Shown piece after piece: positions 30,924 to 54,867 of a stretch of 64,000 nt of DNA; within the stretch, counting starts at the first letter, position 1, and each line of letters begins with the position of its first letter. Position numbers and translations under genes: made by a program. A model generated the notes under the pieces. It had not been told where the DNA came from and did no database searches. It was given only the letters and a program-made list of their open reading frames with translations. This stretch comes from Candidatus Thiopontia autotrophica (GTDB lineage: Bacteria > Pseudomonadota > Gammaproteobacteria > GCF-002020875), in the NCBI GenBank assembly GCA_014384675.1, contig JACNFK010000014.1:1213-65212 (forward strand). Direction: 5' to 3'.

Positions 30924-30936
30924 TATGGAAAAGCAA

Positions 30937-31151: not shown

Positions 31152-31158
31152 TGGCAGT

Positions 31159-39356: not shown

Positions 39357-40177
39357 GTCAGAGTAACCAGGTACTTCCAAAGATATTGGCATTTAGTGTG
39401 GGGCTGGTGTTGCTCTTTACCTTTGTTGCCAACATTCTTCCACAGGTTGAGGGCGAGGCGCCGGTGGACAAGAAGGTGGATCTCGGTGCGCTCACCATGG
39501 ATGGCTTTGTCTCGATGGGAGAAGAGTTATTCAAGGGGAAGGGGACCTGTACCCTCTGTCATAATAATCTTGGGCGCGCGCCTGATATTCTGGCATTGAA
39601 TATGGTGGAGACTGCCGCTGAGCGGTTAAAAGATGAGCGCTATCAAGGAAAATCTACTGATTCGGCCAGTTACTTTATGGAGTCAATGGTAGACCCCTCG
39701 ATCTATGTGGTGGCGAGCTTTGGAAAGAAGGGCAGTAATGATACGGAATCACCTATGCCCGCTGTGAATAAGGCCCCCATTAACCTTTCAGCGATAGAGA
39801 TGGATGCGGTCATCGCCTTTATGCAGGCCAAGGATGGTGGTGAGGTTACGGTGGAGCTGCCTACAGAGGCTCCAGTGGTCGATGAATCTGCTGTCACAGG
39901 CGGCGGAGCACCTGCCCCGGCAGCAACTGGTGAAGAGGCGGTAGGAAAATATGGTTGTGCGGCCTGTCATGTTATTAACGGTTCAGGAGGCGATCTTGGT
40001 CCGGACCTGACTGGGCTAGGCAGCAGACAAAATGTTCTGGTTATTCAACAGAGTATTGTTGATCCAAATGCAGTTATTGCAGATGGATTTGCCCAAGGAC
40101 TTATGCCGGCTGATTTTGGTGACAAGATGACAGTCAAGGAGTTGTCGATGATTGTTGAATTGCTGCAGGGGCAGTAG
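39353..40177 (+). CDS. Membrane-anchored diheme cytochrome c
   Basis: Two CxxCH motifs (CTLCH and CAACH) and an N-terminal TM anchor. Its start overlaps the CydA-like stop (ATGA). Confidence 0.8.
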   Translation: MSQSNQVLPKILAFSVGLVLLFTFVANILPQVEGEAPVDKKVDLGALTMDGFVSMGEELFKGKGTCTLCHNNLGRAPDILALNMVETAAERLKDERYQGKSTDSASYFMESMVDPSIYVVASFGKKGSNDTESPMPAVNKAPINLSAIEMDAVIAFMQAKDGGEVTVELPTEAPVVDESAVTGGGAPAPAATGEEAVGKYGCAACHVINGSGGDLGPDLTGLGSRQNVLVIQQSIVDPNAVIADGFAQGLMPADFGDKMTVKELSMIVELLQGQ

Positions 40178-40242
40178 TCGAGATTTCAATGGCAGCGGAT
40201 GCTGCGATTTTTTTAACTTTTTATCAATGTAAGGAATTAATA

Positions 40243-40560
40243 ATGAACAAGGTAATGATTAGTGTTGTGGCAACTGTAGTAATGGCTTCAAGCCAGTCTG
40301 TAATGGCCGATGCCGCCGGTGATTTTGCCGCCGGCTGTTTTGCCTGTCACAGCCCTGCAACTGCAGCTGCAGTAGGCGCTCCTGGCATGGGTGATAAGGC
40401 TGCCTGGGCGCCACGCATCGCCAAGGGTATGGATGCACTCTATGCAACCGCAATCAATGGCTCTCCAACAAACCCACTGATGATGCCGCGTGGTGGAACC
40501 GCTTTGAGTGATGATGCGCTAAAGGCTGTGGTGGACTACATGGTTGAGCAGTCAAAATAA
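40243..40560 (+). CDS. Monoheme cytochrome c (c5/c553-like)
   Basis: Signal peptide, then a CFACH heme motif in a roughly 85-residue mature domain. The start is taken at MNKVMIS, which has a better RBS than the ORF-track start at 40189. Confidence 0.75.
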   Translation: MNKVMISVVATVVMASSQSVMADAAGDFAAGCFACHSPATAAAVGAPGMGDKAAWAPRIAKGMDALYATAINGSPTNPLMMPRGGTALSDDALKAVVDYMVEQSK

Positions 40561-40615: not shown

Positions 40616-43051
40616 ATGAAACGATTTGGAATTTCGGCATTCTGGCAGGCAATTATTGTAACTATTGCGGCCTACCTGATATTTACCAATGCCTTTCCTC
40701 CATTGATGCCAAAGTCACTGGTGGTTCAGTTTATGCTGATTACCGTGATAGGGGTGCTACTCTACTTCTCTTTTGATGATGAGCGCTGGGCAGAATTTTT
40801 AAGTCCCATTCAGAATGTTCTGCGAGGCGGTGGTTTCCGTTTGACGGTTACCCGTTGGCTCTTCCTGCTTGCAATCCCTGCAGTGGTTGGTTACACAACC
40901 TATGGGTTGGTCAAACCATCACTGGACTCTCCTGTGGAGCTGCGCCAGGTTCATCCTGCCCCTCCATCAACCGTCAAGATCTGGGGCAAGAATTTTGATC
41001 TAAACAGTCTGGAGAGCCCGATCCGTACCGAGGTGCTGACCCAGTGGAAGAGTGGTGAGCGTGAGGGAGCCATGGAGATCTATAACGAGTCAGTCAATGC
41101 GGGCCGTGATGTCTACTATGGCAACTGCTTCTTCTGTCACGGTGATCTGCTGGATGGCAAGGGCCACTATGCGGAAGGGTTTAACCCTCAACCCATCAAT
41201 TTTCAGGATCCAACTGTAATTCCACAACAGCAGGAGGCCTTCCTCTTCTGGCGTGCGGCAACAGGTGGTCCAGGTCTGCCCAAGGAGGGAACTCCATGGA
41301 ACTCTGCAATGCCGGTCTGGCACGAAATGTTGAGTGAGGATGATATCTGGAATGTGCTGATGTTTATCTTCGACTACAACGAGCAGGTTCCAAGAATCTG
41401 GAATCTGGAAGATTCTGAGGCAGCTACAGGAATCAGAGACTCTATTCTCGAGGCCCGCAAAGGGATGGGGGGAGATGAACTCTACCAGTTCCGCTGTATG
41501 GTCTGTCACGGTGAGGAGGGCATGGGTGATGGTGTTGCTGCAGAGTTGATGTACCCCAAGCCACGTGATTTCTCCTTGTCGATGTTTAAATACAAAAGCT
41601 CTCCAGGAACAATCCTGCCAAGGGATGAAGATCTTTTCCATACCATCAAGTTTGGACTGGATGGTACGGGAATGCCAGGTTGGGGAACCCTGCTTAGCGA
41701 TGAGCAGATCAGTAGTCTGATACCGGTAATCAAGTCGTTTGATATTGCCGCAGCATGGCCGCCAGAAGAGGCGGATGATGAAGATTATGATGAGGATAGC
41801 GGCCGTTATCTGAAGGATGATTTCCAGGTAATTACCGAGCGTGAACCGGAAGAGGGACAGATTGCATACACCCCGGAGTCAATAGAGAAGGGCAAGGCTG
41901 CCTTCGAAAAGTCATGTACAGAGTGTCACGGTGATACTGGACGAGGCAATATCATGTCCGGTAAACAGCTAGCGGATGACTGGGGTAATCGTATCTGGCC
42001 ACGAGATCTGACCAAGCCATGGACTTGGCGCGCCACCAACTATACTGCTGGCAAGACTCCGGAAGAGAGCCGAGATCAGACTGTGCGCAATATCTATAGT
42101 CGACTATCTATCGGCATACCAGGAACTCCAATGCCAGCTCACCGAGCTACAGAAGAGGGGAATAAAGATCCGGTAAGTCTGGAGGATCGTTGGCATATTG
42201 CCAATTATGTATACAGCCTGCGCGAAACCACTACCCAGCTGGGTGATAATAATGTGATTCGTGCAGCCAAGGTAGCTGGGGCTCTCCCTGATAGTATGGA
42301 TGATGCCGGTTGGGAAGGGGCTGAGCCTACAACTCTGATGATGGTTCCTAATATCATCAAGGAAGAGCGTCTCTTCACCCCGCTTAATGATGCAATTACT
42401 GTGCGTGCCCTCTACAACAAAAAGGAGATCGCCCTGCTGCTGGAGTTTGATGACCGTACTGATAGTCGTCCCGGTGAAGAGACCTCGGAGGGAATTCAGG
42501 ATGAGGATCTGGAGCTGTTCTCGGATGCGGTTGCGGTTCAGTTCCCCAAGGAGGATGGATTTGAGACCTCACCGGTAGTGGTTAAGCCGTTATACCGCCA
42601 CGGTGATGGCAGACACCACACAACCATGTGGTACTGGAATGCTGGTAGTGTAGAGCCGGCTGTTGCCGATTCCGGGATGTTGCTGGATGCCTCTGGCCCA
42701 GACAAGAAGATCGAGCCACGAATTGGTGATACCTCTCTCTTGACCGAAGGTAGATGGAAAGATGGTCGCTGGCAGGTACTGATGAAGCGTTCACGCAATG
42801 GTGGAGGCAGGGATGGCAAAACTGGTGATCTCAACTTTGTTGAGGGCAGATTCCTCCCCATCTCCTTTGCCAACTGGGATGGCAGTAATGGCGAGAAGGG
42901 TGCCAGACATACCCTCACCACATGGACCTGGTTGGTGCTGCCACCAGAGATTGATGAGCAGCGACTCTATGGGGTTCCTGGGGGTGTTGCCTTTGCCATC
43001 TTCCTTGCCGGCCTTATTTTGGTAAGAACCCAGCGTAGAGGTGCCAAGTAG
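40616..43051 (+). CDS. Membrane-bound triheme cytochrome c with a large C-terminal domain
   Basis: Three N-terminal TM helices, three class-I-like heme sites (CFFCHGD, CMVCHGE, CTECHGD) and a C-terminal TM helix. 811 aa. Confidence 0.75.
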   Translation: MKRFGISAFWQAIIVTIAAYLIFTNAFPPLMPKSLVVQFMLITVIGVLLYFSFDDERWAEFLSPIQNVLRGGGFRLTVTRWLFLLAIPAVVGYTTYGLVKPSLDSPVELRQVHPAPPSTVKIWGKNFDLNSLESPIRTEVLTQWKSGEREGAMEIYNESVNAGRDVYYGNCFFCHGDLLDGKGHYAEGFNPQPINFQDPTVIPQQQEAFLFWRAATGGPGLPKEGTPWNSAMPVWHEMLSEDDIWNVLMFIFDYNEQVPRIWNLEDSEAATGIRDSILEARKGMGGDELYQFRCMVCHGEEGMGDGVAAELMYPKPRDFSLSMFKYKSSPGTILPRDEDLFHTIKFGLDGTGMPGWGTLLSDEQISSLIPVIKSFDIAAAWPPEEADDEDYDEDSGRYLKDDFQVITEREPEEGQIAYTPESIEKGKAAFEKSCTECHGDTGRGNIMSGKQLADDWGNRIWPRDLTKPWTWRATNYTAGKTPEESRDQTVRNIYSRLSIGIPGTPMPAHRATEEGNKDPVSLEDRWHIANYVYSLRETTTQLGDNNVIRAAKVAGALPDSMDDAGWEGAEPTTLMMVPNIIKEERLFTPLNDAITVRALYNKKEIALLLEFDDRTDSRPGEETSEGIQDEDLELFSDAVAVQFPKEDGFETSPVVVKPLYRHGDGRHHTTMWYWNAGSVEPAVADSGMLLDASGPDKKIEPRIGDTSLLTEGRWKDGRWQVLMKRSRNGGGRDGKTGDLNFVEGRFLPISFANWDGSNGEKGARHTLTTWTWLVLPPEIDEQRLYGVPGGVAFAIFLAGLILVRTQRRGAK

Positions 43052-43466: not shown

Positions 43467-44603
43467 ATGGGAGAACGACTGAAAACAGTGCAAGGTGCAA
43501 TCGCAGCAACGATTGCCCTGAGCCTGAGTGTCGGGGTATCCACAGCGGTTGCAGCAGGGTCTCATGGACCAGTTGCCAAGATCGATGTGAATGCTGCGAA
43601 GGCTGAGCTCGGTAAACGACTCTTCTTTGACCGCCGCCTATCGGGTGATGCGGGTATAGCATGTGCGGATTGTCACAGTCCAGATCACGGTTTTGGTAGT
43701 AAGGATGCGCTTTCACCTGGATACCCAGGTAACGGCCATTTCCGCAACGCACCATCACTGGTGAATACGGCACATAAGAAGACATGGATGCATGATGGCC
43801 GCCTCGGTACCAACCTCAATGATGTTACTCGTGAGATGCTCACAGAGGACTACATCATGAATATGGACATGCGGATGATGCAGGAACGTGTCAAACAGGA
43901 TTCAGAATACCTGGCACTCTACAAGGCTGCAGGTATGAATGAGCCATCAAATGGCAGTATTCGTAAAATGCTCCCTATCTTCATGAAGACTCTGACCACA
44001 CGCAATGCGCCAGTGGACAATGGGACTATGAGTGATGCAGCAAAACGTGGCGGAGCAATCTTTGACGGCAAGGGTGGATGTAACCAGTGTCATACTGGTG
44101 CCCTCTACTCAGATGGTGGTCGTCACAACACAGGTGTTCCTGAGAATCTGGATGTCTTCCTTGATCCAATGAACCATCAGGCATACCTAGCCTACGGAAT
44201 TGGTATGGGGGTTGAGAATATTTTCAATACCAAACGTGATATTGGTGCGGCAGTACAGACTCATGAGGCTGACGGTTCTGACCGCGGCATGTTCATGACC
44301 CCGCAGTTACGTGGTCTCAAGTACAGTGCTCCATATATGCATAACGGCATGATGGGCACGCTTGATGATGTGGTTGAGTTCTACAATCAGGGTGGTGGTC
44401 AGGATAGCAACAAGAGCTCTCTGCTTAAGCCACTACGTTTGACTGACGGTGAGAAAGCTGATCTGGTGGCCTATCTTGAGGCACTATCAGGCGACGCACT
44501 GACTGGTCCAGAGTTTGTATGGTCCAAGCCATTCCCTGCAGAGTATGAGGTTATCGAGAACTGGAGACAGGTCGATAACCGTACACGTGCACCAATCAAA
44601 TAA
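43467..44603 (+). CDS. Di-heme cytochrome c peroxidase (CCP/MauG family); IdrP1-like
   Basis: Signal peptide. Two CxxCH motifs (CADCHSP and CNQCHTG) and a conserved CCP C-terminal block (MHNGMMGTLDDVVEFYNQGGG). Confidence 0.85.
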   Translation: MGERLKTVQGAIAATIALSLSVGVSTAVAAGSHGPVAKIDVNAAKAELGKRLFFDRRLSGDAGIACADCHSPDHGFGSKDALSPGYPGNGHFRNAPSLVNTAHKKTWMHDGRLGTNLNDVTREMLTEDYIMNMDMRMMQERVKQDSEYLALYKAAGMNEPSNGSIRKMLPIFMKTLTTRNAPVDNGTMSDAAKRGGAIFDGKGGCNQCHTGALYSDGGRHNTGVPENLDVFLDPMNHQAYLAYGIGMGVENIFNTKRDIGAAVQTHEADGSDRGMFMTPQLRGLKYSAPYMHNGMMGTLDDVVEFYNQGGGQDSNKSSLLKPLRLTDGEKADLVAYLEALSGDALTGPEFVWSKPFPAEYEVIENWRQVDNRTRAPIK

Positions 44604-44622
44604 GCGATCAGGAGAGTTAATT

Positions 44623-45882
44623 ATGTTTGAAAAGAAAAACAGAAACCCAATCGCTGTTGCTGTCGTAATGACTACAACATTGATGGTTGGATGTACCTCA
44701 CAGGCGGGTTCTGTTGCCACCGAGACTGCAGCTGCTCCAACAGTTGTTGCCTCCATGGATAGTGGAACACCTATAGTAGCACCTGGCCTTAAGCCGGCTG
44801 GCGCCTCAATCAACCCATCTCTGGCGGCACTTGGTCCAGTACCGGTTCCTCCAGATAACCCCATCACTCCTGCAAAGGTAGAGCTGGGCAAGATGTTGTT
44901 TTTTGAGCCAGCAATCGGTGGTGATACCTCAACTCCTTGCTCTGCATGTCATGAGCCGGATCAGGGTTGGGCATGGGCCGAGGATATCTCTCGTGGATAC
45001 CCAGGTACTGTTCACTGGCGTAACAGCCAGACTGCGGTTAACTCAGCCTACTACCCACGTCTCTTCTGGGCAGGTTCTGTATCCTCACTAGAGGCACAGG
45101 CCAAGTCTGCGGCAGGCGGTGCAGTAGCAGGTAATGCGGAGTTCGATATTGTTGAGGCCCGTCTTGCTCTGATGCCAGAGTACAGAAAACGTTTCAATGA
45201 GGTCTTCGGCGACGAAATGCCTCTATACAGAAATGCATTCCGTGCGATTGCTGCTTTTGAGCGTGCTGAGCTGGTTCAGCGTGATGCACCAATTGATAAC
45301 TACTTCAATGGTGATGACAGCGCACTGAGCGAAGAGCAGAAGCGCGGTATGGCTCTGTTTAACGGCAAGGCAAACTGTATTGAGTGTCATAATGGCCCAA
45401 TGGCTACGGATTTTGACTTCTACAATATTGGTGTGCCTACTCTAGAGCGTTGGAAGACCGATGGTCTGGCACAGATAACTTATCGTTATGAGATGTATGC
45501 CAAGGGTTCAAACGAGGAGATGTATCGCAACTCCAAGGGCGATCCAGGCTTCTACTTCCGTGGTAAGAATAGCTGGGACAAGGGTAAATTCCGGGTTCCA
45601 TCACTGCGCTACACTATGTATACCGCACCGTATATGCATAACGGCACACTCATGACACTGGAAGATGTTGTTGACTTCTATAATGAGGGCGGTGGCCATA
45701 ATGACTACTCCAAAAACAAGAGTGATCTTATCAAGCCTCTTGGTCTGAGTGATGAAGAGAAAGAAGATCTGGTTGCGTTCCTGGAGGCATTCTCTGGTGA
45801 TGAGATTGAGATTGAGCGTCCCAAGATGCCTGGTTATGCACCTCTGTTTACCAAGGCAGAGCTGATGATGGAGAAGAAATAA
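44623..45882 (+). CDS. Di-heme cytochrome c peroxidase, lipoprotein; IdrP2-like
   Basis: LMVGC lipobox. CSACHEP and CIECHNG heme motifs, and the CCP block MHNGTLMTLEDVVDFYNEGGG. The start is taken at MFEKKN, which has an AGGAG RBS. Confidence 0.85.
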   Translation: MFEKKNRNPIAVAVVMTTTLMVGCTSQAGSVATETAAAPTVVASMDSGTPIVAPGLKPAGASINPSLAALGPVPVPPDNPITPAKVELGKMLFFEPAIGGDTSTPCSACHEPDQGWAWAEDISRGYPGTVHWRNSQTAVNSAYYPRLFWAGSVSSLEAQAKSAAGGAVAGNAEFDIVEARLALMPEYRKRFNEVFGDEMPLYRNAFRAIAAFERAELVQRDAPIDNYFNGDDSALSEEQKRGMALFNGKANCIECHNGPMATDFDFYNIGVPTLERWKTDGLAQITYRYEMYAKGSNEEMYRNSKGDPGFYFRGKNSWDKGKFRVPSLRYTMYTAPYMHNGTLMTLEDVVDFYNEGGGHNDYSKNKSDLIKPLGLSDEEKEDLVAFLEAFSGDEIEIERPKMPGYAPLFTKAELMMEKK

Positions 45883-46478
45883 TGAGCACTAAAACAGAAG
45901 TGACAAAGAAAAGAGAGGACCAGACTGCTGGTGAGCACGGCAAGTGCATGCTCAACCGCCGTCAGTTCCTGATGTACAGTGGTGCTACTGCAGCCACTGC
46001 GAGCACTGTCTCTCTTACCCTGTTCCCAGGAACAGCCAAGGCTGTACAGACCAAGGCACGAGTGGTTGGTTATCCTCGCAAACTGGTTGGTAAGCTGAGT
46101 GAGATGAAGGATAACGTTCCAGTAATGATCAACTATCCAGATAATGGCAAGAACTCCATGGCTACCATGGTGAAGACTGGCGTTAAATGTGGTGGTGGAG
46201 TCGGTGCTGGACGTGACCTGGTTGCATTCAGTGCGCTCTGTACACATCAGGGTGGCCCACTGCTGGGACGTTACACTGCGGTAGATGAGCATAGAGTTAT
46301 GGGTTCATGCCCACTGCATCTATCTACCTACGATGTGACTCGCCATGGAATCATTGTCTCTGGTCAGGCTTATGAGAGTCTGCCACAGGTCCTCCTGGAG
46401 CTGGATGGAGATGATATCTACGCAGTTGGCATGATGGGGCTGATTTACGGCCGTAACCAGAACCTGATGGAATCTTAA
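45882..46478 (+). CDS. TAT-exported Rieske [2Fe-2S] small subunit (AioB/IdrB-like)
   Basis: RRQFL twin-arginine motif. The Rieske ligands are CTHQGGPL ... CPLHLSTY. The start overlaps the CCP2 stop. Confidence 0.8.
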   Translation: MSTKTEVTKKREDQTAGEHGKCMLNRRQFLMYSGATAATASTVSLTLFPGTAKAVQTKARVVGYPRKLVGKLSEMKDNVPVMINYPDNGKNSMATMVKTGVKCGGGVGAGRDLVAFSALCTHQGGPLLGRYTAVDEHRVMGSCPLHLSTYDVTRHGIIVSGQAYESLPQVLLELDGDDIYAVGMMGLIYGRNQNLMES

Positions 46479-46490
46479 GGAGAAAAAGAT

Positions 46491-49184
46491 ATGTCTACAA
46501 ATTATTATCTGCCAGAAGACTCCGCACCATTGCCACCCAAGCATGCGGAAGTCCTGACTACAGCCTGTGACTACTGTATTGTTGCCTGTGGCTATAAAGT
46601 CTATCGCTGGCCTGTCGGCTCTGGTGATGGTGGTCCAACTGCTGATGCAAATGCATTCGGTCAGGACTTCCCAACCAGCGCCCTTCAAAACTGGGTAGCC
46701 CCTGCACAGCATAATGTTGTTATGCACGGTGGTCGTCCACATAACGTGATCGTTGTCCCTGATAAGGACACTCAAGCGGTTAACAAAACCGGTGACTCCT
46801 CCATGCGTGGTGGTCTGCTTGCAGCCAAGTGCTACAATCCAAAGACCCCTACCCGTGATCGTCTCACCAATCCTATGGTACGTATCAACGGTACCCTTCA
46901 GCCAGTTAGTTGGGACTTCGCTCTCGATATTGCTGCTGAGGTTGGTAAGTATGTCATCAAGAACCATGGCGCTAACGCCTACTCGGTGAAGACATTCTCC
47001 TACCAGTATCTTGAGAACACCTATGCGATCAAGAAGTATGCACGTCGTAATGTAAATACTGCATCCTTCACCTTCCACGATACCCCATCTGACGTAACCT
47101 CTACACCAGGTTTCCGTGATGCCGGTTTCGATAACTTTGGCCCATCATATGATGACTGGGGAGATGCAGATGTACTGCAGATCCATGGTACAGATCCGTA
47201 TGAGACCAAGACCATTATCTATACGCAGTTCATCAAACCTGCGATTGAGCGTGGCATGAAGACCATCTGGCTGAATCCTCGTGAGACTGCCGGTATCGCC
47301 TATGCAAACAGCAAGGGTCCTGATCAGACTATCCACTTCCAGCTGACACTTGGTACCGATACGGTGCTTATGGGTGCAATTGCCCGTGTCATCTGTGAGA
47401 ACGGATGGGAGGACAAGGATTGGGTAAACAACTGGGTCAACAGCAAGTGGGAGACCTCTTCCGGCTTCGGTCAGGGAACCCGTAATACCCCATGGCAGTG
47501 GCGTACAACCTGGGGCATGTTCCAGCTCAAGGGTGGCTATAAAGGCTACAGCAAGTGGGTTCAGTCCAAGGATGAGTACAAGGTAGAGAATGCCGCGAAG
47601 ATCTGTGATGTTCCTGCTGCAGATATCATCAAGGCTGCTGAGTGGCTCACCAACAAGGGCGCTGGAACCAAGGCCTCCTTCGGTATCGAGAAGGGCTACT
47701 ACTGGTCCAACAATACCGGTAACACCAATGCTGTATCTTCACTGGCAACCATCTGTGGTGCCGGCGGACGTCCAGGACAGGTTGTTGGTCGCTTCGGTGG
47801 TCACCAGCGTGGTGGTGCAGGTGGCGGTAGCTATCCTCGTAACAAGTCTCCAGAGAAGCGTCCAGGTCGTCGTCGTCGTTCACTCGACACCGATCGTTAC
47901 CTGATCTCCGGTCACACCCGCTTTGCACACGTAATCGGCACTACCTGGATTCAGGCAATGACCGGTTCTCAGAGCCTCTACCACAAGTTCCATGAGCTGG
48001 TACTTGCCAACCCTAATCAGGTTAAATCCTATGATAAGGGTGATATCATCGAGACCCTGAAGAAGCGTGCTGATTCTGGTGGTATGGTTGTGATCAATCA
48101 GGATATCTATCTACGTGATCCAATCGGTGCCCGTTTCGCGGATGTGGTCTTCCCGGCTGCAACCTGGGGTGAGTCTGACTTCACCAGATCAAACGGTGAG
48201 CGTCGTCTTCGTATCTACAACAAGTTCTACGATGCCCCAGGACAGGCAATGCCAGACTGGTGGATTATTGGTGGAATGGCGAGCCGTATGGGCTACGAAG
48301 GCTTCGACTGGAAGAGCGCCAATGAGGTTGCGGAGGAGTCTACACGCTCCAGCCGTGGTAACCGTAAGGCATACCATATGATCAAGGTCGCGGCACATCG
48401 TGAGGGTAAAACCTTCCATGAGAAGATGCGTGAGTTTGGTACTACTGGTATCCAGGGACCAACAGTCTATAACTACAACACCGGTGAACTGCATGGAACC
48501 AAGCGTCTCCATGACACTACACTGACTGAAGCAGATATGGAGCGTATGGGTGTCACCCAGGGTGCCAACATGACCAACAAGAAGATGACGCACTTCAACT
48601 CTCAGACCGGTAAGGTCAATATCCAGAAGCATCCATGGAAACTGTTTGCAGACTTCCATGATTGGCTCTCTCCCAAGGGGGACGAGCTCTGGTTCTCGAA
48701 TGGTCGTATCAACGAGATCTGGCAGTCTGGATTTGATGATGTTGAGCGTCGTCCTTACGTGACACAGCGTTGGCCTGAGAACTGGGTAGAGATCCATCCT
48801 GATGATGCCAAGGCTCGTGGAATCGAGTCTGGTGATCAGGTCATGCTCTACTCTGATCGTGTGGTCGAGTCCAAGGACACCATCCTCGGTGTTCATGGCA
48901 ATGACTTCCAGTTCTCTGAGATGATGAAGAATGGTCATCTCAAGCTAACCAAGGCCGCAGTCACAGCCGTTGCAGTAATCGCTCCCCACCTGAAGAAGGG
49001 AATGATGTACGGCAATATGCTGGATATGCGCCAGCCCAACAATGCGTTGCAGAACCGCGTGGTCGATCAGATCAGTGGTAACTACAACTACAAGATGGGT
49101 GTGGCCAGGGTCAAGAAGATTGGTGAGTCGAAGTACAAGAAGGAGTTCCGCTCCATGTCCTTCGCACCACGTAATATCATCTAG
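46491..49184 (+). CDS. Molybdopterin (bis-MGD) oxidoreductase large subunit of the AioA/IdrA clade; an iodate reductase-type catalytic subunit is the favoured reading
   Basis: N-terminal LPPKHAEVLTTACDYCIVACGYKVYRWP contains the Cys-X2-Cys-X3-Cys 3Fe-4S motif diagnostic of arsenite oxidase-like enzymes. Further blocks (NVIVVPDKD, IWLNPRET, RFGGHQRGG) align with AioA. 897 aa. Confidence 0.85.
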   Translation: MSTNYYLPEDSAPLPPKHAEVLTTACDYCIVACGYKVYRWPVGSGDGGPTADANAFGQDFPTSALQNWVAPAQHNVVMHGGRPHNVIVVPDKDTQAVNKTGDSSMRGGLLAAKCYNPKTPTRDRLTNPMVRINGTLQPVSWDFALDIAAEVGKYVIKNHGANAYSVKTFSYQYLENTYAIKKYARRNVNTASFTFHDTPSDVTSTPGFRDAGFDNFGPSYDDWGDADVLQIHGTDPYETKTIIYTQFIKPAIERGMKTIWLNPRETAGIAYANSKGPDQTIHFQLTLGTDTVLMGAIARVICENGWEDKDWVNNWVNSKWETSSGFGQGTRNTPWQWRTTWGMFQLKGGYKGYSKWVQSKDEYKVENAAKICDVPAADIIKAAEWLTNKGAGTKASFGIEKGYYWSNNTGNTNAVSSLATICGAGGRPGQVVGRFGGHQRGGAGGGSYPRNKSPEKRPGRRRRSLDTDRYLISGHTRFAHVIGTTWIQAMTGSQSLYHKFHELVLANPNQVKSYDKGDIIETLKKRADSGGMVVINQDIYLRDPIGARFADVVFPAATWGESDFTRSNGERRLRIYNKFYDAPGQAMPDWWIIGGMASRMGYEGFDWKSANEVAEESTRSSRGNRKAYHMIKVAAHREGKTFHEKMREFGTTGIQGPTVYNYNTGELHGTKRLHDTTLTEADMERMGVTQGANMTNKKMTHFNSQTGKVNIQKHPWKLFADFHDWLSPKGDELWFSNGRINEIWQSGFDDVERRPYVTQRWPENWVEIHPDDAKARGIESGDQVMLYSDRVVESKDTILGVHGNDFQFSEMMKNGHLKLTKAAVTAVAVIAPHLKKGMMYGNMLDMRQPNNALQNRVVDQISGNYNYKMGVARVKKIGESKYKKEFRSMSFAPRNII

Positions 49185-49478: not shown

Positions 49479-49958
49479 CTAGAAGTGGGGATTTTGTAGG
49501 TGAAAGAAGGGTGTATCTTCCCCTTTTTTACCATTTAGCCTCTCTTCAGCCTCGTTGAGGATATCAATCATCTCAATCTGAAAATCGTTAAACGGTATCT
49601 CTTTGCCTTTGGTGCTACCCCAGTGGTCACGTACAAACTTTCCAAGCCTGTCTGTGATCTGGTCAGCATCTGCGAATAGTTTTTTTCCATAAGCGACTGT
49701 TTCAGCAGGGCAATCGGGTTGGCTGATGGTTGATTTAATGTGGTCAGTCTCTACGGAGAAGTACTCTGATAGAGAGGTGGTGAATTTTTGCAGCTCATTC
49801 ACCAGGTAGGGGATATCAAAATGACCACTACCACAATGGCTTCTGATTGCCGATAGTGTCCCTAACAGACTGTGTTGCTCATCAAGAAGATCTTGATCCA
49901 TCTTTATCTCCAATATCAATGGGTTGTGTATGGTCTGGATGAGATTCCTACTTCTCAT
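49479..49958 (-). CDS. Hypothetical protein. The true start is probably the internal Met at 49901, and hemerythrin-like His/Glu spacing is unconfirmed.
   Basis: An ORF with no recognisable family by eye. Scattered H/E/D pairs (DEQHSLL, HCGSGHF, RDHWGS) are seen. Confidence 0.3.
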   Translation of the reverse strand: MRSRNLIQTIHNPLILEIKMDQDLLDEQHSLLGTLSAIRSHCGSGHFDIPYLVNELQKFTTSLSEYFSVETDHIKSTISQPDCPAETVAYGKKLFADADQITDRLGKFVRDHWGSTKGKEIPFNDFQIEMIDILNEAEERLNGKKGEDTPFFHLQNPHF

Positions 49959-50107: not shown

Positions 50108-50608
50108 ATGCAAAATAGTTACCAATCTGTTGAGACGGGACTGAATCCGAAGATTCCCCCATTTATTGCAGCACCACTGAAAATGGTACCCAATGTGGTC
50201 CATACGCAGCTGTTGGTTGCGGTGCTTAACCATCTGTTCAAGCAGCAGCTGAGTGAGGGTGATCTCGATTTTCTGGAGTCGCGTACTGCAGTGATTCGCC
50301 TGCTGGATGCCGGGGTGGAGTTTCGTTTCACCAAGGGGCGCAAGGGGTTGGTGGCCCACTCCGGAGAGGGGCCGATTGACCTTGCTATTAGTGGTGATCT
50401 CTACGATTTTTTGCAGTTATCACTGGGCAAGGAGGATCCTGATACTCTCTTTTTCCAGCGTCGTATTCGGCTTGAGGGTGATGTAGAGTTGGGGCTGGAG
50501 ACCAAAAATCTTATATACGGACTGGATGTCGAGGCTCTATCGATTCCTGCCCCACTGCGCATGGCCTTTAACAAGGCTATGAGCTTCTATCAGACAAGAT
50601 CAAAGTAA
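50108..50608 (+). CDS. ubiT: SCP2-domain ubiquinone biosynthesis accessory factor UbiT (YhbT)
   Basis: EDPDTLFFQRRIRLEGDVELGLETKNL closely matches the E. coli UbiT block QDPDTLFFQRRLVIEGDTELGLYVKNL. Confidence 0.75.
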   Translation: MQNSYQSVETGLNPKIPPFIAAPLKMVPNVVHTQLLVAVLNHLFKQQLSEGDLDFLESRTAVIRLLDAGVEFRFTKGRKGLVAHSGEGPIDLAISGDLYDFLQLSLGKEDPDTLFFQRRIRLEGDVELGLETKNLIYGLDVEALSIPAPLRMAFNKAMSFYQTRSK

Positions 50609-50681
50609 CCAACCTTTTTTATCAGGAAATTTCCCTCGCTCCTCTACTGATTCCCCGGGGGATCCGATATACTTTCGCCCC

Positions 50682-51614
50682 ATGGCGCTGACCGACTATA
50701 TCCACACATTTGGAAGCACAATGCAGGCCCGTTTTGGCGAGCGGGTGCACAAGGTGTCGATTGATGCCGGCTTCACCTGCCCAAACATCGATGGCTCCAA
50801 GGGGCGTGGCGGCTGTACTTTTTGTAATAATATCTCTTTTAGCCCACATGGCAGAAATCCACGAACTGTTGCCGAGCAGATTGAGTCCGGCAGGCAGGTG
50901 ATTCGCAAACGTACGGGCGCACAGAGTTATATTGCCTATTTTCAGGCCTACACCAATACCTATGCAGACCCGGATGTTCTGGACAAGATGTATCGAGAGG
51001 CATTGGATGAGCCGGATGTGGTTGGTCTTTCGATTGGCACACGCCCAGATTGTGTCCCAGATCCGGTACTGGATCTGTTGGCAGGTTATCGTGAGGAGGG
51101 TTATGAGATATGGCTGGAGCTTGGTCTGCAATCCGCCTTTGATGAGACCCTTGATCGAGTCAATCGACTTCACTACTTTTCGGAATATCGTCAGGCTGTA
51201 AGGTCGGCACAACTGCGGGGGATTCAGCTCTGCACTCATCTTATTGCAGGACTCCCTGGTGAAAATGCATACCATTATCGCGAGAGCATGGAGCGAGTGC
51301 TCGAGTTGGGAACTGATGGATTTAAATTTCACCCTCTGCATGTGGTCAAGGGGACAATGTTGGCCAATGAGTGGCGCAGTGGGGATTTTGTCTCATTGAC
51401 CCAGGAGGAGTATGTGAACGTTGTGGTCAACTGGATTGAACAGGCCCCGAATAGCATGGTCTACCACCGTCTTACTGCTACAGCATCGGAAGATATTCTG
51501 CTGGATCCTGCGTGGTGCAGTAAGAAATGGCTGGTTCTCAATGCCATTGAGGATGAGTTGGCGCGCCGTCAGGTAGATACGGATAATCTGATATCACAGG
51601 TAAAAGCGGTATGA
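50682..51614 (+). CDS. Radical SAM protein of the TIGR01212 (YhcC-like) family
   Basis: CPNIDGSKGRGGCTFC cluster motif, typical of the YhcC family. 310 aa. Confidence 0.75.
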   Translation: MALTDYIHTFGSTMQARFGERVHKVSIDAGFTCPNIDGSKGRGGCTFCNNISFSPHGRNPRTVAEQIESGRQVIRKRTGAQSYIAYFQAYTNTYADPDVLDKMYREALDEPDVVGLSIGTRPDCVPDPVLDLLAGYREEGYEIWLELGLQSAFDETLDRVNRLHYFSEYRQAVRSAQLRGIQLCTHLIAGLPGENAYHYRESMERVLELGTDGFKFHPLHVVKGTMLANEWRSGDFVSLTQEEYVNVVVNWIEQAPNSMVYHRLTATASEDILLDPAWCSKKWLVLNAIEDELARRQVDTDNLISQVKAV

Positions 51615-52873
51615 GTACCATGCAGTATGACATTGTTGTAATTGGTGGAGGTTCTGCCGGCCTCAGTTTTGGCTGCTCATTGGCTGAGAGTGGTATTGGG
51701 GTGTTGATCCTGGAGCGACAGGATCTGGATTCGCTACAGAACCCGAAAATGGACGGCCGAGATTTTGCCAACACCCACCTCTCAAAAAAGGTTATGCAAG
51801 AGTTGGGGGTCTGGCAGCGCATTCCGGCAGAGGAGATAGCCCCATTAAAGGCGGCCAGAGTGGTGGATGGCGACTCTGATTATGCACTACGTTTCGATAC
51901 CAGTGGACGCTCGATAGATGAGCTTGGATATCTCATATCCAACCATGTAATTCGCAAAGCTCTTTATGAGCAGGTCTCAGAGGCGCGTAATGTAGAGATT
52001 CGTTGCGGTGTTGAGGTGACAGCCCTGAGCACAAATAGTGGTTCCGCATCAGTAACACTCTCTACAGGAGAGCAGATAGAGACAGAGATGGTGGTATCTG
52101 CCGACAGCAGATTCTCCGGTACGCGCAGAATGATGGGGATATCGGCAGATATGTTCGATTTTGGTCGCACCGCAATAGTCTGTCGTGTCACTCATGAAAA
52201 GCCCCACCATGAAACTGCCTATGAGTGTTTTCGTTATAGCCGTACTCTGGCCCTGCTTCCATTGAATGGTAACCGTGCCTCAGTGGTAATTACCGTCCCC
52301 TCTAATCAGGCGAAGCGATATATGGAGATGACAGTTGATGATTTCAACACAACCATCGAGGAGGGGCTGGGTGGAGAGTTTGGCAGAATGGAGCTGGAGG
52401 GCGAGCGTTTCTCATATCCGCTGGTGGCGGTTCATGCCAACCACTTTGTGGGCACCCGTTATGCTCTGCTGGGGGATGCGGCAGTTGGCATGCATCCGGT
52501 AACTGCACATGGATTCAATCTTGGCCTGCGTGGACAGAATACCCTGGCAACGGCCATGAAGAGTGCGATCAGCAGAGGTGAACCGTTCTATGGTCACTCT
52601 GTGCTGGGTCACTATGAGCGCCAGCAGATGGTTGCCAGTCGTCCCATCTATCATGGAACAAATGCCATTGTGCGTCTCTTTACCAATGATAGTGCCGCGG
52701 CACGACTATTGAGAAAGGCGGCACTGCGCTTTGGCAACAACTTCCCTCCGGTGCAGTGGGCAATTATTCACAAGCTGACTGAGGTTGGGGGGACAGGTGG
52801 GATCGATCTCCATTTGCTGGATGGAATTACCGAGCGGATCCCGAAGAAATTTCCTAAATACTCAACCCGTTAG
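51611..52873 (+). CDS. FAD-dependent ubiquinone-biosynthesis hydroxylase (UbiH/UbiF/VisC/Coq6 family)
   Basis: YDIVVIGGGSAGLSFGCSLA dinucleotide fold, and the DAAVGMHPVTAHGFNLGL motif typical of UbiH-family monooxygenases. Confidence 0.8.
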   Translation: MSTMQYDIVVIGGGSAGLSFGCSLAESGIGVLILERQDLDSLQNPKMDGRDFANTHLSKKVMQELGVWQRIPAEEIAPLKAARVVDGDSDYALRFDTSGRSIDELGYLISNHVIRKALYEQVSEARNVEIRCGVEVTALSTNSGSASVTLSTGEQIETEMVVSADSRFSGTRRMMGISADMFDFGRTAIVCRVTHEKPHHETAYECFRYSRTLALLPLNGNRASVVITVPSNQAKRYMEMTVDDFNTTIEEGLGGEFGRMELEGERFSYPLVAVHANHFVGTRYALLGDAAVGMHPVTAHGFNLGLRGQNTLATAMKSAISRGEPFYGHSVLGHYERQQMVASRPIYHGTNAIVRLFTNDSAAARLLRKAALRFGNNFPPVQWAIIHKLTEVGGTGGIDLHLLDGITERIPKKFPKYSTR

Positions 52874-52969
52874 GGAGCCGCTGAAAAAGCTTAATGGCTG
52901 GGGTGATCTGAATCAAATTTTGCTGTTATAGCATTCGATTCTGCAGGGTGAATCAACTACAATCCCCCG

Positions 52970-53968
52970 ATGGAATTGGTATGTCCGGCAGGTAATCTTC
53001 CCTCACTGAAAGCAGCGGTCGATAATGGCGCTGATGCGGTATATATGGGGTTTAAGGATGACACGAACGCCAGAAATTTTGCCGGGCTCAATTTTAATGA
53101 GAATAATATCGGGCAGGGGATTGAGTATGCTCACAGCCATGGCGCCAGAATGTTTGCAGCCATCAACACCTTCCCACAACCGAGCGGCTGGGAGCGCTGG
53201 ACCAGTGCAGTAGACCGTGCCGCCGAGGCCGGGATTGATGCAGTTATCCTGGCAGATATGGGAATTCTCGACTACGCAGCCAACCGCTGGCCTGATCTGA
53301 AACTGCACCTCTCGGTTCAGGGGTCGGCAACCAACTATGAGGCGATCAGCTTCATGCATAAAACATTCGGCATAAGCAGGGTGGTTATCCCCCGGGTACT
53401 CTCTGCCCCGCAGGTACGTCATCTTGCAGAGCACACCCCAGTTCCACTTGAGTTGTTTGGTTTTGGCAGTCTCTGTGTGATGGTGGAGGGGCGTTGTCTG
53501 CTCTCCTCCTATGCAACAGGCAGATCTCCAAACACCTATGGTGCCTGCTCTCCGGGTAGCCATGTGGAGTGGATTGAGCGTGATGATGGCGGCATGGAGA
53601 CCAGGCTGGGCGGTATTCTGGTGGACAGTTATAACGCTGGCGAGAGTGCTGGCTATCCAACCATCTGCAAGGGTCGTTTCGAGGTCCAGGGCAAGGAGGG
53701 GTACGCAATTGAGGAACCCACTAGTCTGAATACCCTGGAGCTGTTGCCAGAGATGATGGATATGGGGATTGCTGCAATCAAGATTGAGGGGCGTCAGCGC
53801 AGCCCTGCCTATGTGGCGCAGGTAACCAGGGTTTGGCGCGAGGCTATTGATGCCTGCAAACGTAATCCTGAGGCATTCCAGGTCAAGGATGCATGGAATG
53901 CAGAGTTAAGCAAGGTGGCGGAGGGGGCACAGACTACACTTGGTGCCTACCACCGTTCGTGGCAATAG
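52970..53968 (+). CDS. ubiU: O2-independent ubiquinone hydroxylase subunit UbiU (peptidase U32 family)
   Basis: MELVCPAGNLPSLKAAVDNGADAVYMGFKDDTNARNFAGLNF is nearly identical to the E. coli UbiU N-terminus. Confidence 0.85.
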   Translation: MELVCPAGNLPSLKAAVDNGADAVYMGFKDDTNARNFAGLNFNENNIGQGIEYAHSHGARMFAAINTFPQPSGWERWTSAVDRAAEAGIDAVILADMGILDYAANRWPDLKLHLSVQGSATNYEAISFMHKTFGISRVVIPRVLSAPQVRHLAEHTPVPLELFGFGSLCVMVEGRCLLSSYATGRSPNTYGACSPGSHVEWIERDDGGMETRLGGILVDSYNAGESAGYPTICKGRFEVQGKEGYAIEEPTSLNTLELLPEMMDMGIAAIKIEGRQRSPAYVAQVTRVWREAIDACKRNPEAFQVKDAWNAELSKVAEGAQTTLGAYHRSWQ

Positions 53969-53970
53969 AG

Positions 53971-54867
53971 ATGAAGATCTCACTGGGCCCAATCCTCTAC
54001 TTCTGGCCTGAGGAGGATATTAGATCGTTCTACCGCAAGGTGGCAGAGTCTCCGGTAGATATTGTCTATCTGGGAGAGACCATCTGTTCCAAGCGCCGCT
54101 CTCTTAATACAGACCAGTGGATTGAGATCGCACAGCAACTCAAGACGGCAGGGAAAGAGGTGGTGCTCTCTACATTGGCACTGCTGGAGGCTGAATCGGA
54201 GCTTAAAACCCTGAGAAGAATATGTGGCAATGGCGAGTTTCTGGTGGAGGCAAATGACCTTGCGGCTGTTAATCTGCTCTCCGGGCAGGGCGCAAATTTT
54301 GTGGTCGGACACTCGGTAAATATCTATAACCAGGGCACCATGAAGGTGTTGGCTGAGGCTGGAATGAGTCGCTGGGTTCTTCCGGTCGAGCTATCTCGGG
54401 ATACCTTGCGCGAACTGCAGGCAGAGCGCCCGGATTTGGTAGAGACAGAGGTCTTCGCATGGGGAAGAATCCCATTGGCATATGCTGCCCGTTGCTATAC
54501 AGCACGCCACTATGAGCTACCAAAAGATGACTGCCAGTATAGATGTCTGGCTGATCCTGATGGAATGTTGTTGAATACCAAGGAGGGTGAGCCGTTCCTT
54601 ACCATCAATGGAATCCAGACCCAGTCGGCACAGAGCTGTAATTTGTTGGGTGCAATGGAGGAGATGCGTGAACTTGGGGTGGATGTAGTAAGAATCAGTC
54701 CGCAGTCACAATTTACTCCAGAGATAATCGCCCTGTTTGATCAACTTCAGCGTGGTGACATATCCGTCAAAGATGCAATGGAGCAGGCCGCAAGTTATTT
54801 GCCCAATGGTGGGGTGGATGGTTACTGGCGTGGTGAGGCGGGGATAGCGCAGACAGAACCGGCCTGA
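53971..54867 (+). CDS. ubiV: O2-independent ubiquinone hydroxylase subunit UbiV (peptidase U32 family)
   Basis: MKISLGPILYFWPEEDIRSFY...VYLGETICSKRRS matches the E. coli UbiV N-terminus. The ATG at 53971 directly follows the ubiU stop. Confidence 0.85.
   Translation: MKISLGPILYFWPEEDIRSFYRKVAESPVDIVYLGETICSKRRSLNTDQWIEIAQQLKTAGKEVVLSTLALLEAESELKTLRRICGNGEFLVEANDLAAVNLLSGQGANFVVGHSVNIYNQGTMKVLAEAGMSRWVLPVELSRDTLRELQAERPDLVETEVFAWGRIPLAYAARCYTARHYELPKDDCQYRCLADPDGMLLNTKEGEPFLTINGIQTQSAQSCNLLGAMEEMRELGVDVVRISPQSQFTPEIIALFDQLQRGDISVKDAMEQAASYLPNGGVDGYWRGEAGIAQTEPA

What the first reader, a model, noticed from the sequence alone, without database searches (positions are those of the whole stretch)
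46491..49184. Segment aligning to the AioA substrate-binding loop looks absent or divergent in the Mo subunit
By eye, the region corresponding to the Alcaligenes AioA FSCFDHGGAGGGFENTWG stretch, which contributes arsenite-binding His/Glu residues, reads FSYQYLENTYA here. That is shorter and lacks the DHGGAGGG loop. Lack of conservation of arsenite-binding residues has been reported for IdrA proteins. This would argue against arsenite as the substrate and for a different oxyanion.
Basis: inference. Interest (0 to 1): 0.5.

Follow-up and report, generated by a model that had tools for sequence, protein, structure and literature searches.

The report
Marine-type iodate reductase catalytic subunit (IdrA)
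This gene encodes the molybdenum subunit of a predicted marine iodate reductase, a known relative of arsenite oxidase.

Summary
The ORF at 46491-49184 (+) is the last gene of a canonical idrP2-idrP1-idrB-idrA iodate-reductase cluster from an uncultured marine Thiotrichales-like gammaproteobacterium.

FSYQYLENTYA (aa 169-179) is 4 residues shorter than AioA's FDHGGAGGGF/YENTWG.

**The residue mapping is wrong.**
- By PDB chain index, His195 and Glu203 of A. faecalis AioA lie about 25 residues downstream, in RIHNRPAYNSE.
- The loop carries only the funnel-entrance Asp (NT-26 Asp169).
- A proper alignment gives His195→H196, Arg419→R434 and His423→H438, all conserved. Only Glu203 changes, to S204.
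- Every non-AioA relative has the short loop, so the HGGxGGG stretch is an AioA-specific insertion, not an IdrA deletion.

**What separates all 361 IdrA-family sequences examined from AioA:**
- both funnel-entrance carboxylates are replaced (D169→S170, E453→R440);
- Asn200→Asp197;
- a 10-residue basic insertion follows GGHQ.

The window protein is only 46% identical to the prototype Pseudomonas sp. SCT IdrA. It belongs to a separate marine clade in which the AioA Arg201/Glu207 pair is Thr/Ser; the prototype clade has Lys/Asp.

This is a known enzyme family that public databases mis-annotate as arsenite oxidase. Interest is modest.

The parts
46491..49184 (+). idrA: Mo-bisPGD catalytic subunit, 897 aa, no signal peptide. 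Marine-type IdrA.
   Evidence: Pfam Rieske_3 (3Fe-4S), Molybdopterin and Molydop_binding domains. TIGR02693 scores 381.9 bits against a cutoff of 359. 46% identical to Pseudomonas sp. SCT IdrA and 30% to NT-26 AioA. Foldseek top hits are AioA structures, TM 0.72-0.79.
46995..47027 (+). The flagged loop, F169-SYQY-LENTYA179. It is a strand-to-helix connection, 4 aa shorter than in AioA. S170 aligns to NT-26 Asp169 and Y171 to His170.
   Evidence: In the AF2 model it lies between strand 164-168 and helix 174-188, pLDDT about 76.
47076..47111 (+). H196-DTPSDVTSTPG207, the true counterpart of AioA H195-NRPAYNSE203. His is kept. Arg→T198. The Mo-ligand position Ala→S200 (S or A across the clade). 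Glu→S204.
   Evidence: Gap-free alignment anchored by H196/P199 and R209/D210. Conservation counts.
47688..47696 (+). E400-K401-G402. K401 is NT-26 Lys413, conserved.
   Evidence: Invariant in all sequences aligned.
47790..47888 (+). R434-FGG-H438-Q-R440, followed by an IdrA-specific basic insertion (GGAGGGSYPRNKSPEKRPGRRRRSLD). R434 and H438 are AioA Arg419 and His423. R440 replaces funnel-entrance Glu453.
   Evidence: The segment H438..D466 is 29 aa against 18-19 in AioA. Net charge of 439-465 is +6 to +10 in the marine clades, +4 to +7 in the prototype clade, and about 0 in AioA.
47448..47513 (+). W320-ETSSGFGQGTRNTPWQWRTTW341. This IdrA-signature segment has no AioA counterpart and is nearly invariant. 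Its role is unknown.
   Evidence: Invariant columns in A2. Conserved in the SCT prototype as GYGRGTRNTGWQWRTTWG. Contains a 9-aa insertion relative to NT-26. pLDDT below 50 in the model.
46566..46802 (+). [3Fe-4S] motif C26-x2-C29-x3-C33-x70-S104.
   Evidence: Regex match. Same motif as reported for Azoarcus DN11 IdrA in PMC10149662. Conserved in both IdrA and AioA.
45882..46478 (+). idrB: Rieske [2Fe-2S] small subunit with a twin-arginine signal (NRRQFL) and C120-T-H...C-P-L-H.
   Evidence: TIGR02694 115 bits against a cutoff of 95.7. Pfam Rieske. Motifs. Present upstream of idrA in 79 of 80 loci.
44623..45882 (+). idrP1 (named by position, next to idrB): di-haem cytochrome c peroxidase/MauG-like protein with 2 CxxCH motifs. 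The likely start is M37 of the listed ORF, giving a lipoprotein-like signal.
   Evidence: Pfam CCP_MauG. CxxCH positions. Conserved in 73 of 80 loci. Gene order taken from PMC10989891 and the DN11 accession order.
43467..44603 (+). idrP2 (named by position): second di-haem cytochrome c peroxidase-like protein with 2 CxxCH motifs and a Sec-type signal.
   Evidence: Pfam CCP_MauG. Conserved in 74 of 80 loci. About 32-38% identical to the other peroxidase, in line with the 37% reported in PMC8801600.

Best explanation
The ORF encodes IdrA, the catalytic subunit of a periplasmic iodate reductase (IdrAB), within an idrP2-idrP1-idrB-idrA cluster.

**Proposed mechanism.**
- IdrA folds in the cytoplasm with Mo-bis(pyranopterin guanine dinucleotide) and a [3Fe-4S] cluster. 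It is exported by hitch-hiking on the Tat signal of the Rieske subunit IdrB.
- Electrons from periplasmic c-type cytochromes pass Rieske [2Fe-2S] → [3Fe-4S] → Mo.
- Mo has no protein ligand, as in arsenite oxidase. Reduced Mo(IV) abstracts an oxygen atom from IO3-, which is the reverse direction of the AioA reaction.
- The two di-haem peroxidases remove reactive by-products such as H2O2.

**Active-site comparison with AioA.**
- The inner shell that hydrogen-bonds the Mo-oxo group is kept: H196, K401, R434, H438.
- The substrate funnel is re-charged for an always-anionic substrate. Both AioA entrance carboxylates are replaced (Asp169→S170 in the flagged loop, Glu453→R440). A 10-residue basic insertion follows GGHQ.
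- The short loop is the ancestral state. AioA gained four residues there.

**Clade.** This protein belongs to a marine clade (Gamma- and Alphaproteobacteria, SAR324). It differs from the characterised Pseudomonas SCT/Azonexus clade in having Thr198/Ser204 instead of Lys/Asp (Arg/Glu in AioA).

**Shown here:** homology, motifs, synteny and residue conservation. **Inferred:** substrate, electron path, and the electrostatic role of the substitutions.
For: **Cluster anatomy and motifs.** ORFs and families.

**Synteny.** The order peroxidase-peroxidase-Rieske-Mo subunit is kept in 73-74 of 80 species genomes. The remainder are truncated contigs.

**Published definition.** The idr cluster is defined this way, and idrAB is described as always preceded by two peroxidases sharing about 37% identity (PMC8692401; PMC10989891; PMC8801600).

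**Identity to reference proteins.**
- 46% to UniProt-named IdrA of Pseudomonas sp. SCT.
- 48% to IdrA of the iodate-respiring strain Azonexus hydrophilus NCP973.
- 30% to NT-26 AioA.

**Phylogeny.** In an NJ tree the marine clade has 100% bootstrap support, the prototype clade 100%, the two as sisters 66%, and the AioA clade 100%.

**Relatives named in the literature.** The protein is 70-74% identical to proteins of Vibrio, Moritella and Sedimenticola. Reyes-Umana et al. place those genera in the IdrA/IRI clade.

**Functional evidence for the marine clade.**
- Identical active-site motifs occur in a SAR324 MAG and in Roseibium album.
- idr clusters from OMZ SAR324 and alphaproteobacterial MAGs conferred iodate reduction on E. 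coli (PMC13455634).
- A Roseovarius azorensis IdrA homologue was identified in an iodate-reductase activity band (PMC11445184).

**Residue table** over 361 sequences, and the AioA residue roles (PMC10448176).
Against: - No member of the marine clade has been purified and kinetically characterised.
- The E. coli expression test had a 28% background. I could not confirm that the expressed MAG proteins or R. azorensis IdrA carry exactly the window's motifs (one search found no names).
- Three of the four canonical arsenite-contacting residues are conserved, so arsenite oxidation is not excluded by those residues alone.
- The protein passes NCBIfam's arsenite-oxidase equivalog cutoff.
- The AF2 model has pLDDT below 50 in exactly the active-site segments, and no coordinates were available. 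The position of the basic insertion relative to the funnel is therefore inferred from its adjacency to the Glu453 equivalent.
Confidence: 0.82

Rival explanations
1. It is a genuine arsenite oxidase (AioA), as public annotation says, with a divergent loop.
For: - TIGR02693 'arsenate reductase (azurin) large subunit' scores 381.9, above its cutoff of 359.
- Sources name the close homologues that way.
- The best structural matches are AioA.
- The His195, Arg419, His423 and Lys413 equivalents are conserved.
Against: - Only 30% identical to AioA, against 46-48% to experimentally linked IdrA.
- Separated from the AioA clade with 100% bootstrap support.
- Lacks Asp169, Arg201, Glu207 and Glu453. D169A and E453A lower AioA activity by 30% and 65%.
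- Always linked to two cytochrome c peroxidase genes, which aio clusters lack.
Confidence: 0.03
2. The marine clade is a reductase or oxidase for a different substrate than the prototype IdrA. Candidates include another halogen oxyanion such as bromate or chlorate, selenate or selenite, or nitrogen oxyanions. Alternatively it is an iodate reductase with markedly different kinetics. The cause would be the replacement of the Lys198/Asp204 pair by Thr/Ser and the much more basic insertion.
For: - Only 46% identical to the prototype.
- Clade-specific, near-invariant differences at second-sphere positions 198, 199 and 204, and in the charge of segment 439-465.
- Sedimenticola hydrogenitrophicus carries both types (P0086/L046 and P0518). 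That fits non-redundant functions.
- The characterised respirers named in the Aromatoleum paper (PMC8801600) form one small clade.
Against: - Same four-gene architecture and same universal IdrA signature: S170, Y171, D197, R440, the post-GGHQ insertion and the GTRNTxWQWRTTW segment.
- Published iodate reduction by OMZ-clade clusters in E. coli and by idr-carrying marine Alphaproteobacteria.
Confidence: 0.12

Closest known systems
IdrA of Pseudomonas sp. SCT (UniProt A0A391NTR7) and of Azonexus hydrophilus NCP973 (plasmid NZ_CP151407.1): the prototype iodate reductase catalytic subunit
   Same: - Full-length homology at 46-48% identity, with similar length (892 against 897 aa).
- The CX2CX3CX70S [3Fe-4S] motif.
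- The short S-Y-Q-Y loop.
- H196, D197, K401, R434 and H438. R440 is shared with the SCT protein and all 121 prototype-clade sequences, but Azonexus NCP973 has Cys there.
- An insertion of the same length after GGHQ, and the GTRNTxWQWRTTW segment.
- The gene order peroxidase-peroxidase-Rieske-Mo subunit.
   Different: - Position 198 is Thr instead of Lys.
- Position 199 is Pro instead of mostly Cys.
- Position 204 is Ser instead of Asp.
- The insertion carries a net charge of +7 to +10 instead of +4 to +6.
- No sensor kinase/sigma-54 regulator, downstream cytochrome c or moaA as on the Azonexus plasmid. Here c-type cytochrome genes lie upstream instead.
Arsenite oxidase large subunit AioA (A. 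faecalis 1G8K; NT-26 4AAY/5NQD)
   Same: - Same fold, TM 0.72-0.79.
- A [3Fe-4S] cluster in place of [4Fe-4S], and a Rieske partner exported by Tat.
- No Cys, Sec or Asp ligand position.
- Conserved His195/199, Lys413, Arg419/447 and His423/451.
   Different: - 30% identity.
- The loop is 4 aa shorter (no HGGxGGG).
- Asp169→Ser, Asn200→Asp, Arg201→Thr, Glu203/207→Ser, Glu453→Arg.
- A 10-aa basic insertion.
- Peroxidase genes in the operon.
- The catalytic direction is presumably reversed.
Marine/OMZ IdrA clade (Vibrio, Moritella, Sedimenticola, Roseibium/Labrenzia, SAR324; Reyes-Umana 2021, Li 2026)
   Same: The window protein is a member of this clade. It is 64-98% identical to other members and has identical active-site motifs and synteny.
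   Different: Nothing of substance. The closest relatives are uncultured Thiotrichales/'Piscirickettsiaceae' MAGs and Ca. Thiopontia autotrophica, at 93-98%.

Membership tests
IdrA (iodate reductase catalytic subunit) | Mo-bisPGD subunit of the AioA/IdrA lineage with the N-terminal [3Fe-4S] motif CX2CX3CX70S | tested here: met
   C26/C29/C33/S104. Pfam PF18465, PF00384 and PF01568.
IdrA (iodate reductase catalytic subunit) | Adjacent Rieske subunit IdrB with a Tat signal. IdrA itself has no signal peptide. | tested here: met
   idrB at 45882-46478 carries RRQFL and CxH...CxxH. No twin-arginine motif is present at the IdrA N-terminus (sequence read; no signal-peptide predictor was run).
IdrA (iodate reductase catalytic subunit) | Two di-haem cytochrome c peroxidase genes (idrP2, idrP1) directly upstream on the same strand | tested here: met
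   43467-44603 and 44623-45882, each with 2 CxxCH motifs. This order is conserved in 73-74 of 80 loci.
IdrA (iodate reductase catalytic subunit) | Closer to experimentally linked IdrA than to AioA, and placed in the IdrA clade | tested here: met
   46% identical to SCT IdrA and 48% to Azonexus, against 30% to NT-26 AioA. It falls in a sister clade to the prototypes, not inside the prototype clade.
IdrA (iodate reductase catalytic subunit) | Published IdrA profile-HMM score of at least 640 (Reyes-Umana et al.) | not testable with these tools
   The HMM is not available here (describes it).
IdrA (iodate reductase catalytic subunit) | Molybdenum-dependent iodate reduction activity | not testable with these tools
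   Only literature evidence for relatives exists.
AioA (arsenite oxidase large subunit) | Second-sphere set Asp169, His199, Arg201, Glu207, Lys413, Arg447, His451, Glu453 (NT-26 numbering, PMC10448176) | tested here: not met
   Four of the eight are kept (H196, K401, R434, H438). Four are replaced (S170, T198, S204, R440).
AioA (arsenite oxidase large subunit) | Gly-rich 11-residue loop F-D-H-G-G-x-G-G-G-F/Y-E | tested here: not met
   The loop is 7 residues here. It is 11 residues only in the AioA clade.
AioA (arsenite oxidase large subunit) | NCBIfam TIGR02693 equivalog score above the cutoff | tested here: met
   381.9 bits against 359.05. The narrow pass explains the public mis-annotation.
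AioA (arsenite oxidase large subunit) | aioBA context without peroxidase genes | tested here: not met
   Two CCP genes precede the Rieske gene.

The most novel reading that the evidence does not exclude
The marine-type IdrA has a neutral Thr198/Ser204 pair in place of the Lys/Asp (IdrA prototype) or Arg/Glu (AioA) pair next to the Mo-oxo group. It also has a far more basic post-GGHQ insertion (+7 to +10). On this reading it is a functionally distinct enzyme. It could be a high-affinity iodate reductase tuned to sub-micromolar seawater iodate, or it could have a different or broader oxyanion range than the characterised groundwater/sediment-type IdrA. Both types co-occur in Sedimenticola hydrogenitrophicus, which would then reflect a division of labour.
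Probability: 0.25. Interest if true: 0.55.

Novelty: new member of a known kind. Interest (0 to 1): 0.3.

Why it matters
**Annotation.** The gene is one more case of IdrA filed as 'arsenate reductase (azurin) large subunit' or 'arsenite oxidase' in public databases. That inflates apparent arsenic cycling and hides iodine cycling in oxygen-minimum-zone metagenomes.

**A simple discriminator.** The residue table separates the groups by sequence:
- loop length of 7 against 11 residues;
- Ser/Tyr at 170/171, against Asp/His in AioA;
- Arg at 440, against Glu in AioA;
- a 29-residue segment after His438, against 18-19 residues in AioA.

The same table splits IdrA into two active-site types, which gives concrete mutagenesis targets.

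**Host ecology.** The host appears to be a marine sulfur-oxidiser-like Thiotrichales lineage. This fits the proposed coupling of iodate reduction to sulfur oxidation in low-oxygen water.

Tried and rejected
- **Yamazaki et al. 2020**, the source of the supposed 'non-conserved arsenite-binding residues' statement, is not held. Full-text searches for His195/Glu203/Arg419/His423 found nothing. The other Idr papers do not discuss these residues.
- **The genome-contig scan** returned only the 80 closest loci, all at least 67% identical, so it did not reach the isolate clade. The prototype was reached instead through the plasmid collection and cluster look-up.
- **AlphaFold2 with a 50-sequence alignment** gave mean pLDDT 74, but below 50 in the active-site segments. 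Coordinates are not exposed, so no superposition on 1G8K/4AAY and no funnel mapping was possible.
- **Cluster look-up for Roseovarius azorensis IdrA** (WP_093034476.1) among alphaproteobacterial hits returned no names. The supplement of PMC13455634 is not held.
- **A first NJ run** with Biopython's distance calculator timed out and was replaced by a numpy implementation.
- **Ser200 as a Mo ligand, as in DMSO reductase:** considered and rejected. The position varies between Ser and Ala within the clade (S87/A31 and S120 in the two marine groups; A55/S50 in the prototype clade).
- **GGAGGG at aa 441-446 as a relocated AioA loop:** considered and rejected. Only GG..GG is conserved there, and the AG is specific to a few sequences.
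Full report
**1. What is at the coordinates**

The window carries four co-directional genes.
- Two di-haem cytochrome c peroxidase/MauG-like genes: 43467-44603, and 44515-45882 with a likely true start at 44623.
- A Rieske small-subunit gene, 45882-46478.
- The 897-aa molybdopterin subunit, 46491-49184.

Pfam finds Rieske_3 ([3Fe-4S]), Molybdopterin and Molydop_binding domains in the large subunit, and CCP_MauG in both peroxidases. NCBIfam's arsenite-oxidase equivalogs are passed only narrowly: large subunit 381.9 bits against a cutoff of 359, small subunit 115 against 95.7.

Motif checks:
- IdrA has C26-x2-C29-x3-C33-x70-S104.
- IdrB has the twin-arginine signal NRRQFL and CTH...CPLH.
- Each peroxidase has two CxxCH motifs.

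This is the published idrP2-idrP1-idrB-idrA arrangement (PMC10989891; PMC8692401; PMC10149662).

**2. The observation**

FSYQYLENTYA lies at aa 169-179, nt 46995-47027. HMMER against PDB chains aligns it to NT-26 AioA FDHGGAGGGYENTWG with a four-residue gap. MAFFT agrees. The shorter loop is real.

**3. The residue mapping is wrong**

Counting along the PDB chains, the F of FENTWG is residue 173 in 1g8k.
- His195, Ala199 and Glu203 fall in R-I-H-N-R-P-A-Y-N-S-E.
- Arg419 and His423 fall in R-M-G-G-H-Q.
- The NT-26 equivalents are His199, Glu207, Arg447 and His451.

PMC10448176 lists the second-sphere residues as Asp169, His199, Arg201, Glu207, Lys413, Arg447, His451 and Glu453. Asp169 and Glu453 sit at the funnel entrance, and the D169A and E453A mutants lose 30% and 65% of activity. 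The flagged loop therefore contributes only Asp169.

| NT-26 AioA | A. faecalis AioA | Window IdrA | Status |
|---|---|---|---|
| Asp169 | Asp165 | S170 | replaced |
| His170 | His166 | Y171 | replaced |
| His199 | His195 | H196 | kept |
| Asn200 | Asn196 | D197 | replaced |
| Arg201 | Arg197 | T198 | replaced |
| Ala203 (ligand position) | Ala199 | S200 | Ser or Ala in the clade |
| Glu207 | Glu203 | S204 | replaced |
| Lys413 | (not indexed) | K401 | kept |
| Arg447 | Arg419 | R434 | kept |
| His451 | His423 | H438 | kept |
| Glu453 | Glu425 | R440 | replaced |

The 196-210 stretch aligns without gaps between invariant anchors.

**4. The loop is an AioA insertion, not an IdrA deletion**

I used 150 representatives of a 1.84-billion-protein library and 80 species genomes.
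- The F169..E175 segment is 7 residues in every IdrA-like sequence.
- It is also 7 residues in intermediate groups (P0123-P0134) and in more distant relatives (P0167-P0209).
- It is 11 residues only in the true AioA clade: P0147, P0150, P0154, P0159 and NT-26.
- P0131 and P0134 combine the short loop with the AioA-type Arg/Glu/Glu set.

Loop length therefore does not track those residues.

**5. Family placement**

The closest relatives are MAGs labelled Thiotrichales, Piscirickettsiaceae and Ca. Thiopontia autotrophica, at 93-98%. Vibrio, Moritella, Sedimenticola, Thiodiazotropha and others are 68-78% identical. Reyes-Umana et al. name Vibrio, Moritella and Sedimenticola thiotaurini as carriers of the iodate-reduction island.

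The gene order peroxidase-peroxidase-Rieske-Mo subunit is kept in 73-74 of 80 loci; the rest are truncated contigs.

A tblastn search of plasmids found the idr cluster of Azonexus hydrophilus NCP973. PMC13455634 uses this strain as an iodate respirer. Its IdrA is 48% identical to the window protein. A search seeded with it, followed by a cluster look-up, recovered the prototype 'Iodate reductase subunit IdrA' of Pseudomonas sp. SCT (UniProt A0A391NTR7). That protein is 46% identical to the window protein over the full length.

An NJ tree with 200 bootstraps gives:

| Grouping | Bootstrap support |
|---|---|
| Marine clade (window, Gamma, Alpha, P0121) | 100% |
| Prototype clade | 100% |
| Marine and prototype clades as sisters | 66% |
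| AioA clade | 100% |

PMC13455634 independently reports that OMZ MAG IdrA form a clade distinct from the isolates.

**6. Active-site signature over 361 sequences**

Universal in both IdrA clades:
- the 7-residue loop with S170 and Y171;
- H196, D197, K401, R434, H438 and R440;
- a 29-residue segment from H438 to D466, against 18-19 in AioA.

The GTRNTxWQWRTTW segment (aa 329-341) is also shared. It is invariant in the 50-sequence marine alignment and present in the SCT prototype.

Clade-specific features:

| Feature | Marine clade | Prototype clade | AioA |
|---|---|---|---|
| Position 198 | Thr | Lys | Arg |
| Position 204 | Ser | Asp | Glu |
| Position 199 | Pro | mostly Cys | Pro |
| Net charge of 439-465 | +7 to +10 | +4 to +6 | about 0 |

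Alphaproteobacterial members such as Roseibium album have motifs identical to the window's, as does a SAR324 MAG. Position 200, the Mo-ligand position, varies between Ser and Ala. That fits the reported absence of a protein ligand (PMC10100899).

**7. Structure**

The AF2 model has mean pLDDT 74 and pTM 0.75. The flagged loop lies between strand 164-168 and helix 174-188, with pLDDT about 76. Segments 197-215, 320-341, 437-442 and 449-465 have pLDDT below 50. Foldseek ranks AioA structures first (E about 1e-49, TM 0.72-0.79), then NapA. No IdrA structure exists in the PDB copy. No coordinates were available, so funnel geometry is inferred.

**8. Mechanism (inference)**

AioA and IdrA share the cofactor set and the inner His/Lys/Arg/His shell around the Mo-oxo group. 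Arsenite is neutral As(OH)3 at physiological pH, whereas iodate is always an anion (general chemistry). All IdrA sequences replace both funnel-entrance carboxylates with Ser and Arg, and add a basic insertion next to the Glu453 position. This is consistent with re-charging the funnel for an anion while keeping the oxygen-atom-transfer chemistry, run in the reductive direction. Published models add detoxification of by-products by IdrP1 and IdrP2.

**9. Functional evidence for the marine clade is indirect**

- idr clusters from OMZ SAR324 and alphaproteobacterial MAGs raised iodate reduction in E. coli above a 28% background.
- Idr-carrying marine Alphaproteobacteria reduce iodate, with idr genes induced by 0.1 µM iodate.
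- An IdrA homologue was found in an activity-stained band.
- I could not confirm the sequences of those particular proteins.

**10. Verdict**

This is a known enzyme family and a new member of its marine clade. The discriminating features are D169→S, E453→R, N200→D and the post-GGHQ insertion. Within IdrA, the Thr198/Ser204 pair distinguishes the marine type from the Lys/Asp prototype type.

Noticed in passing
window 40616-43051 (+): An 811-aa predicted membrane protein with three CxxCH haem c motifs and a C-terminal EB_dh domain (the haem-b subunit of type II DMSO reductases). It lies directly upstream of the idr genes. A homologue occupies the same position in 19 of 80 related loci, including Sedimenticola, Thiodiazotropha, Motiliproteus and Thiotrichaceae. 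It is a candidate electron donor module for marine IdrAB.
   Followed up: partly
window 37536-40560 (+): A 606-aa protein with a cytochrome bd subunit-I-like (CydA) domain, followed by two c-type cytochrome genes of 274 and 123 aa. This could be a quinol-to-cytochrome c module feeding the idr cluster. Homologues of the first two lie downstream of idrA in a SAR324 MAG (L080).
   Followed up: partly
window 50108-54867 (+): An SCP2-domain protein, a radical-SAM protein, a UbiH-like FAD monooxygenase and two peptidase-U32 proteins. The set resembles UbiT/UbiU/UbiV of O2-independent ubiquinone synthesis, which would suit a low-oxygen lifestyle. The SCP2 and radical-SAM genes also follow idrA in the closest MAGs (L001, L002).
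   Followed up: partly
window 28881-33318 (-): Two large proteins with repeated PCP_red domains (protochlorophyllide reductase 57 kD subunit). One is fused to a radical SAM/SPASM domain, the other to universal stress protein domains. Next to them is an 813-aa HEAT-repeat protein (34405-36846). This is an unusual combination of unknown function.
   Followed up: no
window 49479-49958 (-): A 159-aa ORF directly downstream of idrA on the opposite strand. It matches no Pfam or NCBIfam family and has no tblastn match in the 80 related loci.
   Followed up: partly
window 47811-47828 (IdrA aa 441-446): The sequence GGAGGG occurs right after GGHQR. It mimics the AioA HGGAGGG loop and could mislead a by-eye search. 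Only GG..GG is conserved in the clade.
   Followed up: yes
Sedimenticola hydrogenitrophicus (L046/P0086 and P0518): This species carries both a marine-type IdrA (72% identical to the window protein) and a prototype-type IdrA (67% identical to Azonexus IdrA). These may be non-redundant paralogues.
   Followed up: no
L081:6983-9661 (Azonexus hydrophilus NCP973 IdrA) and the prototype clade: The prototype clade mostly has Cys at position 199 (HDKCS), one residue before the Mo-ligand position. Strain NCP973 also has Cys instead of the otherwise invariant Arg at position 440 (GGHQCGG). The literature states that IdrA has no protein ligand. Whether Cys199 approaches Mo is untested.
   Followed up: partly
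representative search hits P0138, P0163, P0170, P0172, P0190, P0196: Proteins of 1100-2100 aa whose N-terminal ~440 residues match the first half of IdrA/AioA at 33-38% identity. These are large fusion proteins of unknown origin and function.
   Followed up: no
NCBIfam TIGR02693 / TIGR02694: The 'equivalog' cutoffs for the arsenite oxidase subunits are passed by IdrA and IdrB. As a result nearly all named homologues, including those of iodate respirers, are labelled 'arsenate reductase (azurin)' or 'arsenite oxidase' in public records.
   Followed up: yes
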